Counted from the first letter of the stretch, positions 9,040 through 30,950 are shown. The stretch: DNA of 64,000 nucleotides from an uncultured Thermodesulfobacteriota bacterium (GCA_964623985.1 CAZUXG010000002.1:17106-81105); one strand, 5' to 3'. Notes: generated from the sequence alone by a model not told the origin. Translations and numbers: made by a program.

Positions 9040-9105
9040 TGGCGGCGCAAAAAATCCGCTCTACTGCGCCGTACCCCAAGGACACTTCCTAGGGGCGCAA
9101 AATAG

Positions 9106-9177
9106 ATTGAATATTTTGAGGATTAAAATTTGAGCCTAACACAGCTATTGGGCAAAAAGACAATTTTTTGAGGTACC
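9106..9177 (-). repeat. Full copy of the ~70 bp intergenic repeat family (inverted relative to the copies at 15202 and 30886)
   Basis: Its reverse complement, GGTACCTCAAAAAATTGTCTTTTTGCCCAATAGCTGTGTTAGGCTCAAATTTTAATCCTCAAAATATTCAAT, aligns to 30886-30950 with about 8 mismatches. Confidence 0.6.
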
Positions 9178-9309
9178 TTTTAACGAAAGCAGCAAGCCTT
9201 GACAACCGTTAAATTGGAGGTTATCCTTTGATTATAAAAAGTCACCCGATAATGAAAATAATTGACTTCGAGTGGCAAGACGGTTTTCCAATTTATTAAG
9301 GAGGTTATT

Positions 9310-13242: not shown

Positions 13243-13361
13243 TTAAAAAACTCCCTAAAAAATGGATAAATTTTATCTTCTATATGACTCAGATAGCCAA
13301 AATAACACTAAATGGAGCAATCATGCTACGCTTCCATATCTAACTTGCTACATATGAAGTG

Positions 13362-14810
13362 TTATTGACTATTGGCGGCTGAGACTTGCAAACCATGACG
13401 CTTCATCTTTTTATAGAGAAGGGTGCGATGGATACCGAGCTGACGGGCCGCCAGACTTTTATTACCACGGGATAGGTCTAGAGCTTGACGAATCGTTTTT
13501 TGCTCAGTTAAGGCCAACGCCTCACTTAAATTTCGGCCAGAACCCTGATTTCCTGATAGCCCCGGTTGTCGATGCAGATAAAAAGGGAGATCGGCCAATT
13601 CAATAACATCACCTTCAATAGTTGCCAGAATCTGACTTAAGACATTGTTCATCTCCCGCACATTACCGGGCCAGTCATAAAGGAGTAGAGTATTGGCCGC
13701 TTCAGAACTCAAGGAGATCTCAGGAATAAATGAATCCTGGATCATCTTCTTTAAGAGGCTACGGGCCAAAAAGATAATATCTTCACGGCGTTCCCGCAAC
13801 GGTGGAATGACTAAGGGGATACCTTTAAGACGATAGTAAAGATCAGCCCGGAATAAGCCACTTGCTACCTTTTCAGCCAGAATGTGGTTGGTTGCAGCAA
13901 TGAGCCGGAAATCTGAACGAATCGGCGAGATACCACCAACTCTTTCAAACTCTTTCTCTTCCAGAACCCGCAATAACTTTGGTTGCATCTCAAGAGGCAT
14001 ATCACCAATCTCATCAAGAAAGATTGACCCTTGGTTAGCCAATTCAAACTTACCCGGTTTACCTGAGGTGCAAGCCCCGGTAAAAGCCCCCTTTTCGTAA
14101 CCAAATAATTCCGCTTCAAGCAACTCTCGCGGAATTGAAGCACAATTAATCCGGACAAAAGGATGAACCCGACGATTACTGGCATGGTGAATAGCCTGGG
14201 CAAACATCTCTTTGCCGGTTCCCGACTCCCCGCTAATCAGAATCGGTAAAGCCGTCGCAGCGACCTTTAAAGCCTCTTTTTTAAGTTGCTCCATAACCGA
14301 ACTTTCAGCAATAATACTGTCGAAGGTATAACGGGTAGATCGCAGAGAGAAGATCTCCTCCTCATAAAGTTTGACCTTACTCTCAAGTAGGGCAAGACGA
14401 TCTGCCAACTTTTGTACGTCACCAACATTCTTGAACATTACCTGACCAAAAACCGCGATCACCTTGCCATCTTTTTTAATAGGAATACGCTGAACCACCA
14501 TATCCTGATTTTTCAAACGATGGGCTTTATTGATCTCGGCCTTACCAGTCTTGGCAACAATATGCATACGGGTATTTTCGATAACCTCAGTCGCATGTTT
14601 ACCGATCTGGGCGGCTGGATCAATTCCTAAAAAACTACCATAGGGTTTATTAAAAAAGATAATTTCGCCTTTAGCATCAGTAACAATGACACCGTTGTGA
14701 ATATTATCTATAATCAGCTGGCAAAGCTCCAGAGTTGACTCCAAATCTGTTTTTGAAGTTCTTTTCGACACCGCCCCCTCCACTATCTCCTTAACCACTT
14801 TACTACCCAC
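13362..14810 (-). CDS. Sigma-54-dependent transcriptional activator (PAS sensor, AAA+ domain, Fis-type HTH)
   Basis: 482 aa. N-terminal PAS-like region, ESGTGKEMFAQAIH Walker A, a GAFTGA-like loop (YEKGAFTGA), and a C-terminal HTH (LAARQLGIHRTLLYKKMKRHG). Confidence 0.85.
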   Translation of the reverse strand: MGSKVVKEIVEGAVSKRTSKTDLESTLELCQLIIDNIHNGVIVTDAKGEIIFFNKPYGSFLGIDPAAQIGKHATEVIENTRMHIVAKTGKAEINKAHRLKNQDMVVQRIPIKKDGKVIAVFGQVMFKNVGDVQKLADRLALLESKVKLYEEEIFSLRSTRYTFDSIIAESSVMEQLKKEALKVAATALPILISGESGTGKEMFAQAIHHASNRRVHPFVRINCASIPRELLEAELFGYEKGAFTGACTSGKPGKFELANQGSIFLDEIGDMPLEMQPKLLRVLEEKEFERVGGISPIRSDFRLIAATNHILAEKVASGLFRADLYYRLKGIPLVIPPLRERREDIIFLARSLLKKMIQDSFIPEISLSSEAANTLLLYDWPGNVREMNNVLSQILATIEGDVIELADLPFYLHRQPGLSGNQGSGRNLSEALALTEQKTIRQALDLSRGNKSLAARQLGIHRTLLYKKMKRHGLQVSAANSQ

Positions 14811-14845
14811 TTAAAAACCCGGCTGGAGATCAAATTAGACTAAAA

Positions 14846-14869
14846 TTCATGTAGCTCATTTGCTACATG
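14846..14869. promoter_or_regulatory. Perfect palindrome, candidate upstream activator sequence for the adjacent sigma-54 activator
   Basis: TCATGTAGC-TCATTT-GCTACATGA, with 9 bp arms, about 150 bp upstream of a sigma-54-like -24/-12 element. Confidence 0.4.
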
Positions 14870-15008
14870 AACATACTATAAAGAGGCTAACTTCGTCAAC
14901 CCAATAACTATCAGCACTCTATCACCAACTCGGATACAACTCATAAGTAGCTATTTTATAGAACTAAATTCCTTCATAACAAGCCGGTCTTAAGAAACTC
15001 ACCACCTT

Positions 15009-15024
15009 TGGCCTGTTTGTTGCG
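15009..15024 (+). promoter_or_regulatory. Candidate sigma-54 (-24/-12) promoter reading toward the hypothetical gene at 15261
   Basis: TGGCCTGTTTGTTGCG has GG and GC at the canonical spacing (TGGCAC-N5-TTGC). It lies divergent from the sigma-54 activator gene. Confidence 0.4.
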
Positions 15025-15201
15025 ATTTTATCACACATTTAGTGAGGTGACAACCTGAGCAGCAGTACCATTTCCCTGAGCAAAGTTCTTAACGATTCCG
15101 AGTATCAAGAAATTGACAATTTCTGCAGCACCCATCAAGGAATTGAAATGCTCAAGAAAAACTTGACTTTACACCCCCCACACCATATAGACCTCCGCCA
15201 G

Positions 15202-15250
15202 AGTACGTCTAAAAATTACCTTTTTGCCCAATAGCTACGTTAGGCTCAAA
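15202..15250 (+). repeat. Copy (about 48 bp) of the intergenic repeat family
   Basis: AGTACGTCTAAAAATTACCTTTTTGCCCAATAGCTACGTTAGGCTCAAA aligns with 30888-30936. Confidence 0.55.
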
Positions 15251-15260
15251 AAAATCATCC

Positions 15261-16028
15261 ATGAATACACCCTCTGATACATATATCTGTCCAGTCACCA
15301 AGCTAACAATTCTCAACAAACCGGAATGGAACAATATTGGGTTTGGCAATGACTATAAAATTTCAGTAGAAATTATCAACGAACAGATTTTGGTCACCCA
15401 TAATTCCGGCACACCCACCTTATATGACACTCAAAACGCCTTGCACTTCACAACCCATATTATCGAAAATTTTTTAGTTGATCGCCCCTACATTCATATT
15501 TTTGATTACAACGGAGTCAAACAAAGGTTCCCCCTTGAAGCCCGCCGTCTAGCCATTAAGGATATAAGCAAACGGAAGCGGATGCTGGCAGCAATCTTCT
15601 ATGGGCTTATACCGTCGATAAAATTAAGCATAAAAATTGGTCGCTTTTTCCACCAATTTCCCTTTCCCTGCCTGCTGGTAAGAAACTACACCGAGGCCAT
15701 GGAAACGACCCTGACAATCCTCAACGATAGTGAAAGAAATCCGCTTATTGTTGAAAAAAAGAAAGCTCTGGATTGTGAAACGGAAAAATTAATTAAAGAC
15801 CTCACGCAAAGAAAGCTCTCCTCTTGTAATGCCGATGCCACCCCTTTTGATCAAACAATTGAGTTGATTGAAGATGAAATTCAATATCTTGAAGAGAAAG
15901 TAAGTAAAACTCGCCGAGTAAATACCTTGATCCGGCTGGACAAGATTATCAGCAGCAGAAATGAAAAATCCAGAACCTATTGGAACAGTCTGCGGCCAAG
16001 TTCCAGAGCAAGACTGAAAAATGAATAA
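15261..16028 (+). CDS. Hypothetical protein (AT-rich gene, coiled-coil C-terminal half)
   Basis: 255 aa ORF with no motif I recognise. Notably lower GC than its neighbours, and no clear RBS. Confidence 0.5.
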   Translation: MNTPSDTYICPVTKLTILNKPEWNNIGFGNDYKISVEIINEQILVTHNSGTPTLYDTQNALHFTTHIIENFLVDRPYIHIFDYNGVKQRFPLEARRLAIKDISKRKRMLAAIFYGLIPSIKLSIKIGRFFHQFPFPCLLVRNYTEAMETTLTILNDSERNPLIVEKKKALDCETEKLIKDLTQRKLSSCNADATPFDQTIELIEDEIQYLEEKVSKTRRVNTLIRLDKIISSRNEKSRTYWNSLRPSSRARLKNE

Positions 16029-16074
16029 AAAAAGCGTAAAGATGCAGGAAATCGCTTACATAAATAATACTTTT

Positions 16075-16460
16075 ATCGCTTTGGATGAAGTGACATGGTC
16101 AAGTAAAAATGGACACTTTTCTTAGGCTGCTTTGCTCTTAACCATCATTTTTTCAAAATCTTTTGGGCTCATATATCCCAGATATGAGTGACGGCGTTTG
16201 CGGTTATAGAACATTTCGATATAATCGACTATATCCCGTCGAGCTGACTCCCTGGTTTTATATTGGGAACCATGCACCCGTTCGGTTTTCAGACTACCAA
16301 AAAAACTTTCCGCTACACTATTATCCCAGCCGTGCCCTTTGCGACTCATGCTGCTGATCATGTCGTACTTCTTCAACTCTTTTTGAAAATCATGACTACA
16401 ATACTGGCTGTCTCTATCAGAATGAAAGATGAGCCCGGCCTCCGACAATCTCCATTAATT
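16075..16460 (-). mobile_element. IS3-family transposase remnant (C-terminal part of OrfB integrase core only)
   Basis: Translation LIFHSDRDSQYCS...DNSVAESFFGSLKTERVH...YIEMFYNRKRRHSYLGYMSPKDFE is the IS3 DDE-domain C-terminus. The N-terminal half and OrfA are absent. Confidence 0.7.
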
Positions 16461-16461
16461 C

Positions 16462-16693
16462 AGCAAACCCAGCCACAAAGCATAACTGAAAGCTGAAAGA
16501 ATCGTCGTTAAAGAGATCGAGGCAACTGCCAAGTCAACATGCCCACCCATCTCACGAGCCATAACAAAGGTTACAGTCGCGGTCGGTGCAGCCAGCAGGA
16601 TCAATCCGGGAGTAAAGGTTTGGCGTCAACCCCGGCTCCCAACATGATCAGCATGAAAATCGGGATAATCGTCGTAATAACCTTGCCCATGAT
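16462..16693 (-). pseudogene. AEC (auxin-efflux-carrier) family transporter remnant: N-terminal 24 codons joined out of frame to the last 48 codons
   Basis: MGKVITTIIPIFMLIMLGAG then a stop. In another frame, ILLAAPTATVTFVMAREMGGHVDLAVASISLTTILSAFSYALWLGLLN*. Both match the AEC N- and C-termini, and about 250 codons are missing. Confidence 0.5.
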
Positions 16694-16880
16694 AAAATCG
16701 AATAATTTATAAAGATTTTGGTTTTAATTCCCCGCAACTCTTGTTATTATAAGTACTATGACGTTTAAAGACCGTCTTGAAAGGTTCCATATCAAGATGA
16801 ATGTCTCTTGCTAACCACTATGAGATAGATATTCAACTTTAATCAGAAACCTTAGTTAACCCCGTTTAAAAAAAATATCT

Positions 16881-17717
16881 ATGCATCCACAACCCCCAAT
16901 TCACCTTCCGCCCCGGATTATCGCCCCGCGCCGTGCGGTTGTCCTCTCCGCCGGCACCCTCTACACATTGAAACTTTCAGAGATATTCGAAATCGCTTCT
17001 GAATGTGGCTACGACGGGATCGAACTGATTATCAACACTGTATTTGAGGATAGCTGCTCTCATAAAATCATTGAAAAACTACTCCCACTCTGCCCGATCC
17101 TCTCGATCCATGCCCCTTTCTTAAAACTTCATGGCTGGGGCCATGGTGGGAAATCACTCATCAAATGCATTAATCTGGCCCGTGATTTCGAGATCCCACT
17201 GGTCAACTTTCATCCACCCCTCTGGTTGCCACCAGAATTCACCTTCCGGCACTGGTTCTACAGAGTTGAAGATTTCCAGACCCTGGTCAACGACAGTAAG
17301 GTTATCGTCACCATAGAAAATATGCCCTATGTCGGCAACCACATTCGCTTCAATCCAAATATCCTGAAAAAATCGGAAGAGATGCTCAAATTCGTTGAAA
17401 AACATAACCTTTTCATGACCTTTGATACAACCCATATAGGTTCTCACAATCCCAATTTCCTCGGTGAATTCCAACGCCTTTTGGTTACCGGTCGGATTAA
17501 AAATATCCATTTCAGTGATTATGGCCACAACCGGGAGCACCTCTTTCCAGGACGCGGCATCCTGCCTCTGACCCGTTTTCTCTACATGCTCAAAGAGCGC
17601 AACTACGAGGGTGCCGTCACCCTTGAATTGAGTCCGACGGAACTTCCTAAAAAACGTGATATGATCGTTGAAAGTCTCAGTGAAGTGAACGAATACTTAA
17701 GGTCTGAACTATTTTAA
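16881..17717 (+). CDS. Sugar phosphate isomerase/epimerase (xylose-isomerase-like TIM barrel) family protein
   Basis: 278 aa. CGYDGIEL...HAPF...ENMP...FDTTH pattern typical of AP-endonuclease-2/TIM-barrel proteins. The real start may be the internal TTG at about 16968 (MKLSEIFEIA). Confidence 0.6.
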   Translation: MHPQPPIHLPPRIIAPRRAVVLSAGTLYTLKLSEIFEIASECGYDGIELIINTVFEDSCSHKIIEKLLPLCPILSIHAPFLKLHGWGHGGKSLIKCINLARDFEIPLVNFHPPLWLPPEFTFRHWFYRVEDFQTLVNDSKVIVTIENMPYVGNHIRFNPNILKKSEEMLKFVEKHNLFMTFDTTHIGSHNPNFLGEFQRLLVTGRIKNIHFSDYGHNREHLFPGRGILPLTRFLYMLKERNYEGAVTLELSPTELPKKRDMIVESLSEVNEYLRSELF

Positions 17718-18017: not shown

Positions 18018-18296
18018 CTATTCGATCGTCAGAATTTCCGTTAAATTATAGAGCTCAAAAAACTGAAGCAACTTTTTTGAAACATTAATCAATACCATTT
18101 TACCAGCCCGCTCCACAACCTTTCTCTGGGCACTCACTAGAGATCCGAGAGCACTAGAATTGAGATAGGTCACCCTCTCCATATCCAGAACCAGCTTATC
18201 CACCCCGGCATCAGTTGCAGCCGTAAGTTCTTGTGAAAATTCATCCCAGGTTTCAACGTTTGCAACATCACCTTTAAGTGCCAATCTTGTTTCCAT
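18018..18296 (-). CDS. STAS-domain anti-sigma-factor antagonist (SpoIIAA/RsbV-like)
   Basis: 92 aa. Motif LDMERVTYLNSSALGSLVSAQRKV with the conserved phosphorylatable Ser. Confidence 0.75.
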   Translation of the reverse strand: METRLALKGDVANVETWDEFSQELTAATDAGVDKLVLDMERVTYLNSSALGSLVSAQRKVVERAGKMVLINVSKKLLQFFELYNLTEILTIE

Positions 18297-30868: not shown

Positions 30869-30885
30869 TTATTTAGGGTACCTCG

Positions 30886-30950
30886 AAAAATTATCTTTGG
30901 GCCCGATAGCTACGTTAGGTTCAAATTTTAATCCTCAAAATATTCAATAT
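30886..30950 (+). repeat. Full copy of the ~70 bp intergenic repeat family
   Basis: GGGTACCTCGAAAAATTATCTTTGGGCCCGATAGCTACGTTAGGTTCAAATTTTAATCCTCAAAATATTCAAT. Near-identical copies lie at 9106-9177 (inverted) and 15202-15250, with a partial copy at 1251-1277. Confidence 0.6.

What the first reader, a model, noticed from the sequence alone, without database searches (positions are those of the whole stretch)
13362..16028. Sigma-54 activator, UAS palindrome, -24/-12 promoter and AT-rich orphan gene: a self-contained regulatory module next to IS debris
The PAS-AAA-HTH enhancer-binding protein (13362-14810, minus) is divergent from a 255 aa AT-rich hypothetical protein. The intergenic region holds a perfect 9 bp-arm palindrome (TCATGTAGC-N6-GCTACATGA, 14846-14869), then about 150 bp downstream a -24/-12 element with correct GG/GC spacing (15009-15024). 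A copy of the 70 bp repeat sits in the 5' leader. The target protein has no recognisable domain, has low GC, and ends exactly where an IS3 remnant begins. This suggests a horizontally acquired cargo gene under bEBP control.
Basis: partly seen in the sequence, partly recalled or inferred. Interest (0 to 1): 0.5.

Follow-up and report, generated by a model that had tools for sequence, protein, structure and literature searches.

The report
Orphaned sigma-54 switch after operon deletion
The activator, its binding palindrome and the sigma-54 promoter are real, but they are what is left of a seven-kilobase nutrient-uptake operon that this genome deleted, and the 255-residue gene beside them is an old, conserved neighbour with its own promoter, not imported cargo.

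Summary
The sequence features are there, with small corrections. The palindrome has 10-nt arms at 14846-14871. The -24/-12 element is at 15009-15023. The repeat in the leader is a truncated 51-nt copy.

In every close relative with enough contig (six complete or nearly so), the orthologous activator (81-91% identity) is divergent from a six-gene operon: 3-hydroxybutyrate-dehydrogenase-like SDR, DctPQM TRAP transporter, a LarA-type racemase and a FAD-linked oxidase. The same TGTAG-N8-CTACA palindrome and sigma-54 promoter precede that operon. The 255-aa gene comes next, behind its own conserved sigma-70-like box.

In the window, two deletions (about 5.7 kb and 1.6 kb) removed the operon. They left the oxidase ribosome-binding site plus about 31 codons (15044-15148, ATG changed to CTG) between the sigma-54 promoter and the 255-aa gene's own promoter box. 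The right flank is eroded too.

The activator is intact, and no terminator-like site was found between the sigma-54 promoter and the gene, so accidental read-through is possible but untested. This is ordinary locus decay.

The parts
13362..14810 (-). Sigma-54 enhancer-binding protein (PAS, AAA+, HTH_8). It is intact. The start codon is ambiguous between 14771 and 14810.
   Evidence: Pfam domains. It is 88.5% identical over its full length to the L006 orthologue. It has 5 private substitutions in 456 columns. Another assembly calls it as 469 aa.
14846..14871 (.). Upstream activator site: perfect palindrome TTCATGTAGC-N6-GCTACATGAA. The core TGTAG-N8-CTACA (14850-14867) is conserved in relatives.
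   Evidence: One search gives the arms. One search shows TGTA...CTACA columns invariant in 9 sequences. One search finds the palindrome about 130-145 nt from the -24/-12 element in L006, L010, L011, L012 and L017.
14870..14899 (-). Candidate sigma-70-type promoter of the activator gene itself (TTGACG-N18-TATGTT), abutting the palindrome. This is an inference.
   Evidence: Consensus scan. It coincides with the conserved blocks CGTCAAC and CATACTATA.
15009..15023 (+). Sigma-54 -24/-12 promoter TGGCCTGTTTGTTGC. The expected transcription start is near 15035.
   Evidence: It is conserved as TTGGCCTGYTTGTTGC upstream of the SDR-TRAP operon in relatives.
15043..15044 (.). Deletion junction 1. The sequence just downstream of the sigma-54 promoter is joined to the ribosome-binding site of the FAD-oxidase gene. 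About 5.7 kb is missing (small leader ORF, SDR, dctP, dctQ, dctM, larA).
   Evidence: blastn: window 14700-15043 matches L006 8093-7746, and window 15044-15148 matches L006 2074-1970 (= L001 4154-4258). Alignments.
15044..15148 (+). Remnant of the FAD-linked oxidase (GlcD-like) gene: the ribosome-binding site GAGGTG plus about 31 codons, with the start codon ATG changed to CTG at 15055.
   Evidence: blastn E 3e-17 at 77% identity. tblastn covers residues 1-33 at 70% identity, E 3e-9. Alignment A3. Translation.
15148..15152 (.). Deletion junction 2. FAD-oxidase codon about 31 is joined to the promoter-proximal DNA of the 255-aa gene. About 1.6 kb is missing, including a hairpin that follows the oxidase gene in L001.
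   Evidence: window 15152-15192 matches L001 5857-5898. Alignment A4. The hairpin is visible in L001 5810-5850.
15162..15191 (+). Conserved sigma-70-like box CTTGACTT-N16-TATAGA, the inferred native promoter of the 255-aa gene.
   Evidence: It occurs once in the window against 0.01 expected. It occurs once in each of the 12 loci that carry the gene, always after the FAD oxidase and before (Hexapep-)p255.
15200..15250 (+). Truncated 51-nt copy of a roughly 75-nt dispersed repeat, lying in the 5' leader. Relatives lack it.
   Evidence: No blastn homology to relatives over 15193-15234. Absent from 87 loci. No folding signal.
15261..16028 (+). The 255-aa protein: an N-terminal STAS/SpoIIAA-like domain (residues about 1-158) plus a conserved helical C-terminal half.
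16042..16085 (+). Remnant (14 codons, MQEIAYINNTFIAL) of the Aminotran_4 (D-amino-acid-transaminase-like) gene that follows the 255-aa gene in relatives.
   Evidence: translation, and blastn of 16009-16090 to L001 6753-6833. The L001 protein starts MPEIAYINNNFIPL.
16086..16457 (-). IS3-family remnant: a terminal TGAAGTG... end and the C-terminal 108 codons of the transposase (16122-16448).
   Evidence: Pfam rve_2 (1.4e-18) and rve_3. The sequence is read. The same junction appears in JGI contig L086.
16442..16690 (-). Remnant of the Mem_trans (auxin-efflux-carrier family) gene: the C-terminal 55-61 codons joined to about 20 N-terminal codons. About 0.68 kb is deleted internally, with about 8 nt of overlap at the join.
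   Evidence: tblastn covers residues 254-308 at 98% identity. blastn pieces 16442-16637 and 16630-17000 match L001 7623-7819 and 8502-8847.
16881..17717 (+). AP_endonuc_2 (xylose-isomerase-like TIM barrel) gene. Intact synteny with relatives resumes here.
   Evidence: 85.6% identity to L001.

Best explanation
The region is a decayed catabolic locus, not a module built around the 255-aa gene.

Ancestral arrangement. A PAS-AAA+-HTH enhancer-binding protein was transcribed divergently from a sigma-54-dependent operon. That operon encoded a small leader ORF, a 3-hydroxybutyrate-dehydrogenase-like SDR, a DctPQM TRAP transporter, a LarA-type nickel-dependent 2-hydroxyacid racemase and a GlcD-like FAD oxidase. 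This looks like a hydroxy-acid uptake and oxidation pathway. The activator bound the TGTAG-N8-CTACA palindrome about 150 bp upstream of the -24/-12 element. The next transcription unit downstream was (hexapeptide acetyltransferase)-p255-aminotransferase, with its own sigma-70-like promoter.

What happened in this lineage. One deletion joined the DNA about 20 nt downstream of the -12 element to the oxidase ribosome-binding site. A second removed the oxidase from about codon 31 to just upstream of the p255 promoter box. Separately, an IS3 insertion and further deletions destroyed the aminotransferase and the Mem_trans gene on the other side.

What remains. An intact activator, its binding site and its promoter remain, now 226 nt upstream of p255's start codon, and no terminator-like site was found in between. 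Any activator-dependent transcription would therefore read into p255, in addition to p255's own promoter.

Shown: orthology, synteny, the junctions, the gene remnants, conservation of the motifs, and the STAS-like fold.

Inferred: that the activator binds the palindrome; that the boxes are active promoters; the pathway's substrate; and any present-day read-through.
For: 1. Activator orthologues at 81-91% identity lie on the same contigs as the p255 orthologues (one search compared).
2. tblastn maps the order MBL-rhodanese, RmlC, EBP <-> SDR, DctP, DctQ, DctM, LarA, FADox -> p255 -> Aminotran_4 -> MemTrans(-) -> AP_endonuc_2 in L006+L001 and L011+L003. Partial versions appear in L008, L009, L012, L066 and L010. 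The window has every flank gene but only FADox residues 1-33.
3. blastn shows the intergenic region is a mosaic whose pieces abut. 14700-15043 is the EBP-side intergenic region with the sigma-54 promoter, 15044-15148 is the FADox 5' end, 15152-15192 is the p255 promoter region, and p255 starts from 15235.
4. The palindrome core and the -24/-12 element are conserved across 8 relatives.
5. Activator homologues at 56-64% identity in other orders are also divergent from DctPQM operons.
6. The sigma-70-like box precedes the p255 unit in all 12 loci that carry the gene.
7. Additional lineages show FADox-(Hexapep)-p255, followed by Aminotran_4 where the contig extends (L089, L090, L092, L087).
8. The same scar is present in ENA contig k141_138190, which differs from the window by 1 mismatch in 8768 nt.
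9. No terminator-like site on the + strand lies between 14700 and 16900.
10. The activator shows no decay: 5 private substitutions in 456 columns, against 4-18 in its orthologues.
11. NCBIfam names the lost genes: 3-hydroxybutyrate dehydrogenase above its cutoff, and LarA family at 442 bits against a cutoff of 460.
Against: - Nothing contradicts the deletion history.
- No transcript data exist, so the activity of either promoter is unproven.
- The sigma-70-like box has A rather than T at the last -10 position. The consensus scanner therefore did not call it.
- Only 64 kb of this genome was available. A second copy of the operon, or other targets of the activator elsewhere, cannot be excluded.
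- The intact state of the activator, palindrome and promoter could mean they still have a function rather than that the loss is recent.
- L088 may come from the same sample or population as the window, so it excludes a one-off assembly error but is not an independent lineage.
Confidence: 0.88

Rival explanations
1. One reading: a self-contained module in which the activator senses a signal and switches on a horizontally acquired AT-rich cargo gene (p255) from the sigma-54 promoter.
For: The activator, palindrome and promoter are adjacent to p255. p255 has lower GC than the window, 0.406 against 0.471. An IS remnant lies downstream. No terminator-like site lies between the sigma-54 promoter and p255.
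Against: p255 is at the same chromosomal position in every relative examined, and there it is not next to the activator. Its GC is below the local mean in every relative, so low GC is a family trait. The sigma-54 promoter is orthologous to the one that drives SDR-dctPQM-larA-oxidase elsewhere. A remnant of that operon lies between the promoter and p255. p255 keeps its own conserved promoter-like box. The IS interrupts the neighbouring aminotransferase gene.
Confidence: 0.03
2. Adaptive rewiring. The deletions were selected, or have since been co-opted, so that the activator now controls the STAS-like p255. This would be a new regulatory circuit made by promoter capture.
For: The activator, palindrome and -24/-12 element are all undecayed. 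The palindrome is more perfect here (10-nt arms) than in relatives (5-6 nt). Junction 1 lies just after the expected transcription start, so the whole promoter is spared. The hairpin that follows the oxidase gene in L001 is gone, and no terminator-like site is found. p255 is the only one of nine ancestral genes between the activator gene and the AP_endonuc_2 gene that survives intact.
Against: The transporter that would import the presumed inducer is gone. p255's own promoter box is retained. Lack of decay is equally explained by a recent deletion. The palindrome abuts the activator's own promoter-like site, so autoregulation alone could preserve it. There are no expression data.
Confidence: 0.1
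3. p255 is the 5' fragment of a larger sensor kinase gene truncated by the IS insertion. This was my own initial suspicion, because its N-terminal domain resembles input modules of signalling proteins.
For: The N-terminal 158 residues are homologous to the N-terminal modules of 500-1800 aa PAS/HisKA/HATPase and GGDEF proteins. An IS remnant lies 58 nt after the stop codon.
Against: All full-length orthologues are 251-263 aa, with a conserved C-terminal half and stop position. In relatives the gene is followed directly by Aminotran_4, and 14 codons of that gene are still present here after the stop.
Confidence: 0.01

Closest known systems
NtrC-family bacterial enhancer-binding proteins with an N-terminal PAS sensor. 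The best NCBIfam match is PrdR, and AtoC, NorR, PrpR and DhaR models also hit.
   Same: It has PAS, a sigma-54 interaction AAA+ domain with GAFTGA, an AAA lid and a Fis-type HTH_8 domain. It is divergently transcribed from a -24/-12 promoter with a palindromic upstream site about 150 bp away.
   Different: It reaches no named equivalog: PrdR scores 425 bits against a cutoff of 795. In relatives its target operon is SDR + TRAP transporter + LarA-type racemase + FAD oxidase, not proline reductase. In this genome the target operon is deleted.
Sigma-54-dependent control of carboxylate uptake systems, for example DctB/DctD-dctA of rhizobia. This comparison is from general knowledge and was not tested here.
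   Same: An activator gene sits next to a sigma-54-driven organic-acid transporter operon. Activator homologues in several Desulfobacterota orders sit divergently from DctPQM genes.
   Different: This is a one-component PAS activator rather than a two-component response regulator. The transporter is TRAP-type rather than DctA. The substrate is unknown.
STAS / SpoIIAA-like domain proteins (SpoIIAA, RsbS, RsbR C-terminal domain, the DUF3478 structure 2q3l).
   Different: Sequence identity is only 8-17%, and there is no hit to the Pfam STAS models or to any PDB sequence. The alignment column where many homologues have Ser is Pro in the window protein and in two homologues. I mapped that column to the SpoIIAA phosphorylation site by eye only. 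p255 also has a conserved roughly 95-residue helical C-terminal extension. The same domain occurs at the N-terminus, often in tandem, of histidine kinases and GGDEF proteins.
Orphaned regulators and gene remnants in genomes undergoing IS-associated erosion. This is a general phenomenon cited from general knowledge.
   Same: Several short gene remnants lie between intact flanks, with an IS fragment among them, and a regulator is left without its adjacent target.
   Different: Here the regulator and its cis-elements show no decay, and they have been fused to the next transcription unit.

Membership tests
Bacterial enhancer-binding protein (sigma-54 activator) | AAA+ sigma-54 interaction domain with Walker A, Walker B and the GAFTGA loop | tested here: met
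   PF00158 at E 1e-67 over residues 166-333. GESGTGKE, GAFTGA and FLDEIG are readable in the translation.
Bacterial enhancer-binding protein (sigma-54 activator) | C-terminal DNA-binding helix-turn-helix and an N-terminal regulatory domain | tested here: met
   HTH_8 at E 3.2e-11 (residues 432-471) and PAS at E 2.4e-9 (residues 31-118).
Bacterial enhancer-binding protein (sigma-54 activator) | ATP-dependent activation of sigma-54 holoenzyme at a cognate promoter | not testable with these tools
   This needs in vitro transcription or genetics.
PrdR (NCBIfam NF041552 equivalog) | Score above the curated whole-protein cutoff | tested here: not met
   424.7 bits against a cutoff of 795. The match starts at profile position 124 of 577.
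Sigma-54-dependent promoter with upstream activator site | TGGC-N7-TTGC, with GG and GC exactly 12 nt apart | tested here: met
   TGGCCTGTTTGTTGC at 15009-15023.
Sigma-54-dependent promoter with upstream activator site | Promoter and palindromic site conserved at the orthologous position in relatives | tested here: met
   Alignment A1 has GG and the TGTA...CTACA columns invariant. The two elements lie about 130-145 nt apart in L006, L010, L011, L012 and L017.
Sigma-54-dependent promoter with upstream activator site | rpoN- and activator-dependent transcription start about 12 nt downstream of the GC | not testable with these tools
   There are no expression data.
Sigma-54-dependent promoter with upstream activator site | IHF-type bending site between the upstream site and the promoter (common but not obligatory) | tested here: not met
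   No WATCAANNNNTTR match with up to 1 mismatch in 14872-15008 on either strand. A conserved A/T-rich block TTGTTTTATAA exists.
Horizontally acquired cargo gene / genomic islet | Absent from the syntenic position in related genomes | tested here: not met
   p255 is present between the FAD oxidase (or Hexapep) gene and Aminotran_4 in L001, L003, L005, L089, L092 and L087. In L090 it follows Hexapep, but the contig ends just after it.
Horizontally acquired cargo gene / genomic islet | Composition atypical for the host but not for its orthologues | tested here: not met
   p255 GC against locus GC: 0.406/0.471 (window), 0.435/0.467 (L001), 0.502/0.523 (L003), 0.371/0.456 (L005).
STAS / SpoIIAA-like domain | Alpha/beta fold superimposable on SpoIIAA or RsbS | tested here: met
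STAS / SpoIIAA-like domain | Match to the Pfam STAS or STAS_2 sequence models | tested here: not met
   No hit at E up to 1 for any of the 11 family members. There is no PDB sequence hit at E up to 1.
STAS / SpoIIAA-like domain | Conserved phosphorylatable Ser/Thr at the start of helix 2 (anti-anti-sigma subclass only) | tested here: inconclusive
   The column before the invariant L92 is S in many homologues but P in the window protein and in two homologues. I mapped it to the SpoIIAA site by eye, not from a residue-level structural alignment.

The most novel reading that the evidence does not exclude
The deletions have created a new circuit. A PAS-sensing sigma-54 activator that lost its hydroxy-acid uptake operon now drives, by promoter capture, a stand-alone protein made of a STAS-like input domain and a coiled coil. 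That domain has no family model in Pfam or NCBIfam and is otherwise found at the N-terminus of histidine kinases and GGDEF proteins. The perfected 10-nt palindrome would be an adaptation to the new role.
Probability: 0.1. Interest if true: 0.45.

Novelty: new member of a known kind. Interest (0 to 1): 0.22.

Why it matters
The main value is as a caution. A tidy 'activator + binding site + promoter + unknown gene' picture read from a single genome can be a deletion scar. Here comparison with a handful of relatives showed the true target operon and the junctions.

There are two modest positives.
- The comparison assigns a likely regulon to an unnamed clade of PAS-type sigma-54 activators in Desulfobacterota. 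That regulon is SDR, TRAP transporter, LarA-type racemase and FAD oxidase. It also gives the clade a conserved operator, TGTAG-N8-CTACA.
- It shows that the 255-aa 'hypothetical' is the stand-alone form of a STAS-like domain with no Pfam or NCBIfam model. That domain is common at the N-terminus of signalling proteins (715 profile hits).

Tried and rejected
1. Truncated sensor-kinase hypothesis for p255. Rejected: orthologues have the same length and a conserved C-terminus.
2. Horizontal transfer of p255. Rejected by synteny and by family-wide low GC.
3. Assembly artefact. Unlikely: the same scar is in ENA contig L088 and the same IS junction is in JGI contig L086. The remnants are what deletions leave behind.
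4. A second copy of the lost operon. tblastn found none in the 64-kb window. The rest of the genome was not available.
5. Riboswitch or known RNA in the leader. There were no Rfam hits at gathering threshold anywhere in the window.
6. The leader repeat as a structured element. Fold z-scores were 0.2-0.5, so there is no signal. It is absent from all related loci. Its nature is unresolved.
7. IHF site between the palindrome and the promoter. None found with up to 1 mismatch.
8. Additional activator sites in the window. TGTAG-N8-CTACA occurs only once. A TTGCTACAT 9-mer at 13346-13354 resembles a half-site but is within chance expectation by my estimate.
9. Relaxed selection on the orphaned activator. 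Not seen.
10. Literature searches for a LarA / TRAP / 3-hydroxybutyrate dehydrogenase sigma-54 regulon, and for N-terminal STAS-like sensor domains. No papers held all the search terms.
11. Pfam, NCBIfam and PDB sequence searches for p255. No hits. Only the fold comparison was informative.
Full report
**1. What is in the sequence**

- The minus-strand ORF at 13362-14810 encodes a PAS / Sigma54_activat (E 1e-67) / AAA_lid_14 / HTH_8 protein.
  - Walker A (GESGTGKE), GAFTGA and Walker B are visible in its translation.
  - Another assembly calls its start at 14771, giving 469 aa.
- Upstream of it lies a perfect inverted repeat, TTCATGTAGC-N6-GCTACATGAA, at 14846-14871.
- TGGCCTGTTTGTTGC lies at 15009-15023 with canonical GG/GC spacing.
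- By count alone neither motif is remarkable.
  - TGGC-N7-TTGC occurs 7 times against 2.8 expected.
  - TGTAG-N8-CTACA occurs once against 0.6 expected at up to 1 mismatch.
  - Their reality has to come from conservation, covered below.
- The 255-aa ORF at 15261-16028 has no Pfam or NCBIfam match. Its GC is 0.406 against 0.471 for the window.
- The leader holds a 51-nt truncated copy (15200-15250) of a roughly 75-nt repeat. Full copies are at 30875-30948 (+) and 9105-9180 (-).

**2. The 255-aa gene is neither an orphan nor imported**

- A database search found 11 proteins at 55-73% identity. The full-length ones are 251-263 aa and conserved to the C-terminus. The gene is therefore complete and belongs to a family.
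- On every contig that extends past the gene (L001, L003, L005, L089, L092, L087), the orthologue is followed by an Aminotran_4 gene. In L090 the contig ends just after the gene.
- In all of these loci it is preceded by a FAD-linked oxidase, sometimes with a hexapeptide acetyltransferase in between.
- Further downstream come Mem_trans (-), AP_endonuc_2, a small STAS protein, a Sm_multidrug_ex-family protein (PF06695) and a transglycosylase. The last four are present in the same order in the window from 16881 onward.
- The gene's GC is below the local mean in each relative as well. The AT-richness is therefore a family trait.

**3. The activator's real target**

- Activator orthologues at 81-91% identity lie on the same contigs as the 255-aa orthologues.
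- tblastn with the L006/L001 proteins gives the order MBL-rhodanese, RmlC, activator <-> SDR, DctP, DctQ, DctM, LarA, FAD oxidase -> p255 -> Aminotran_4 -> Mem_trans(-) -> AP_endonuc_2.
  - This holds in L006+L001 and L011+L003.
  - Truncated versions appear in L008, L009, L012, L066 and L010.
- NCBIfam gives the following.
  - The SDR is a 3-hydroxybutyrate dehydrogenase, above its cutoff.
  - LarA is just under the nickel-dependent lactate-racemase cutoff (442 against 460 bits), with other 2-hydroxyacid racemase models also hitting.
  - The oxidase is GlcD-like.
- The intergenic region between the activator and the SDR gene, aligned across eight relatives and the window, shows several conserved elements.
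  - The TGTA...CTACA columns are invariant.
  - The blocks CATACTATA and CGTCAAC are conserved. On the minus strand these form a TTGACG-N18-TATGTT promoter-like site for the activator gene.
  - There is an A/T-rich block.
  - The -24/-12 element TTGGCCTGYTTGTTGC is conserved.
- More distant activator homologues (56-64% identity; Syntrophales, Desulfobacterales, Desulfomonilia) are also usually divergent from DctPQM genes.
- The cognate target of this activator clade is therefore a TRAP-transporter-led hydroxy-acid operon.

**4. The scar**

- blastn of window 14700-16100 against the relatives gives abutting pieces.
  - 14700-15043 matches the activator-side intergenic region, including the sigma-54 promoter (L006 8093-7746).
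  - 15044-15148 matches 11 nt upstream plus the first codons of the FAD oxidase gene (L001 4154-4258; 77% identity, E 3e-17).
  - 15152-15192 matches the DNA just upstream of p255 in relatives (L001 5857-5898).
  - 15235 onward matches p255.
- tblastn confirms oxidase residues 1-33 at 70% identity.
- The alignment shows the ribosome-binding site retained and ATG changed to CTG at 15055.
- Measured on L006, the two missing stretches are about 5.67 kb (small leader ORF, SDR, dctPQM, larA) and about 1.60 kb (the rest of the oxidase plus a hairpin that follows it in L001).
- The presence of the oxidase remnant shows that the window lineage lost the operon. The relatives did not gain it.
- The right flank is eroded too.
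  - The first 14 Aminotran_4 codons survive at 16042-16085.
  - Next comes an IS3-type end and the last 108 transposase codons (16086-16457).
  - Then comes a Mem_trans gene reduced to its C-terminal 55-61 codons and N-terminal ~20 codons, joined with about 8 nt of overlap.
- Of the nine ancestral genes between the activator gene and the AP_endonuc_2 gene, only p255 is intact.
- The same structure is present in ENA contig k141_138190, with 1 mismatch in 8768 nt. The IS junction is present in a JGI contig. A one-off misassembly is therefore unlikely.

**5. p255's own promoter**

- The box CTTGACTT-N15-17-TATAVA occurs once in the window, at 15162-15191, against 0.01 expected.
- It also occurs exactly once in each of the 12 loci that carry the gene, always after the oxidase and before (Hexapep-)p255.
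- I read it as the native sigma-70-type promoter of that unit. This is an inference.
- The -10 hexamer ends in A, which is why the consensus scanner did not list it.

**6. What p255 is**

- AlphaFold with the 11-sequence alignment gives a confident alpha/beta domain. Mean pLDDT is 83-93 per 10-residue block over residues 11-120, and 76-91 over 121-150.
- It gives a low-confidence helical C-terminal half.
- A full profile search finds 715 proteins at E up to 0.001.
  - In most of the best-scoring hits the match is confined to residues about 5-160.
  - It sits at the N-terminus of a 500-1800 aa protein, often in two to four matched stretches.
- Pfam scans of ten of these showed PAS, HisKA, HATPase_c, Response_reg and GGDEF downstream in seven. 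The other three had no Pfam hit.
- p255 is therefore a stand-alone form of a STAS-like input module with no Pfam or NCBIfam model, plus a family-specific conserved helical tail (…LIEDEIQYLEE…SRNEKxRxYxNSLRP).
- Its biochemical role is unknown. In relatives it appears to be co-transcribed with a D-amino-acid-transaminase-like gene, with gaps of 2 to 35 nt or an overlap.

**7. How it most likely works now**

- The activator is intact and as conservative as its orthologues: 5 private substitutions in 456 columns, against a range of 4-18 in the others.
- Its palindrome and promoter match the family consensus.
- No + strand terminator-like site lies between the sigma-54 promoter and p255.
- If the activator is ever switched on, transcripts starting near 15035 would run through the 31-codon remnant, the sigma-70 box and the repeat into p255.
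- I put about 0.4 on such read-through occurring at all, and about 0.1 on it being an adaptive rewiring.
- The more economical reading is a recent loss that has left an orphaned but not yet decayed regulator. The palindrome may additionally be preserved by autoregulation of the adjacent activator promoter.

**8. Comparison with known systems and verdict**

- The activator meets the defining sequence features of bacterial enhancer-binding proteins, but it meets no named equivalog (PrdR 425 bits against a cutoff of 795).
- The promoter and upstream site meet the sequence and conservation criteria for a sigma-54 regulatory region. Their activity was not testable.
- p255 meets the fold criterion for STAS but not the Pfam sequence criterion.
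- Three literature searches returned no paper holding all the search terms.
- The locus is an ordinary example of IS-associated gene loss.
- It has two useful by-products: a predicted regulon and operator for an unnamed activator clade, and recognition of a STAS-like domain family that has no Pfam or NCBIfam model.

Noticed in passing
L006 minus strand about 7683-7590; also L012, L008 and L066 (alignment A1 columns about 560-640): Relatives carry a conserved small ORF of about 30 codons between the sigma-54 promoter and the SDR gene. Its motif is RW(N/K)RGPP(P), for example MTTLDGLVLKTTTGRWNRGPPPTLKGKTYF. It could be a leader or ribosome-arrest peptide controlling the operon. It is deleted in the window.
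   Followed up: partly
window 30875-30948 (+), 9105-9180 (-), 15200-15250 (+, truncated): A roughly 75-nt intergenic repeat family occurs in this window (core AAAAATTATCTTTTTGCCCAATAGCTACGTTAGGCTCAAATTTTAATCCTCAAAATATTCAAT). It shows no significant RNA fold and no copy in 87 related loci. Its nature is unknown.
   Followed up: partly
window 16442-16690: The Mem_trans (auxin-efflux-carrier family) gene is reduced to its two ends, joined with about 8 nt of overlapping homology. This suggests a microhomology-mediated internal deletion separate from the IS event.
   Followed up: partly
window 15261-15734 (p255 residues 1-158) and proteins P0012-P0159: The STAS-like N-terminal domain has no Pfam model. 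One relative, P0013, gives only a weak DUF7793 hit. The domain occurs in up to four tandem copies at the N-terminus of PAS-HisKA-HATPase and GGDEF proteins. It may deserve a family definition.
   Followed up: partly
window 18018-18296 (-): A canonical 92-aa STAS protein (PF01740/PF13466 in the orthologues) is conserved about 2 kb downstream of p255, three genes on in intact relatives, in all of them. Whether the two STAS-fold proteins are functionally linked is unknown.
   Followed up: no
window 13346-13360: TTGCTACATATGAAG lies just downstream of the activator's stop codon and shares the 9-mer TTGCTACAT with the right arm of the palindrome. By my own rough estimate, about 0.5 such matches are expected by chance in 64 kb.
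   Followed up: no
window 728, 22790, 33321, 34224, 54718, 60513: Six further TGGC-N7-TTGC matches occur in the window, making 7 in total against 2.8 expected (only 2 of 100 shuffles reach 7). I did not check whether any lies upstream of a gene or is conserved.
   Followed up: no
L005 5384-6004, L090 2136-2705, L092 2934-3527, L087 1-69: Some lineages have an extra hexapeptide-repeat acetyltransferase gene between the sigma-70-like box and p255. The transcription unit is therefore variable (Hexapep-p255-aminotransferase).
   Followed up: partly
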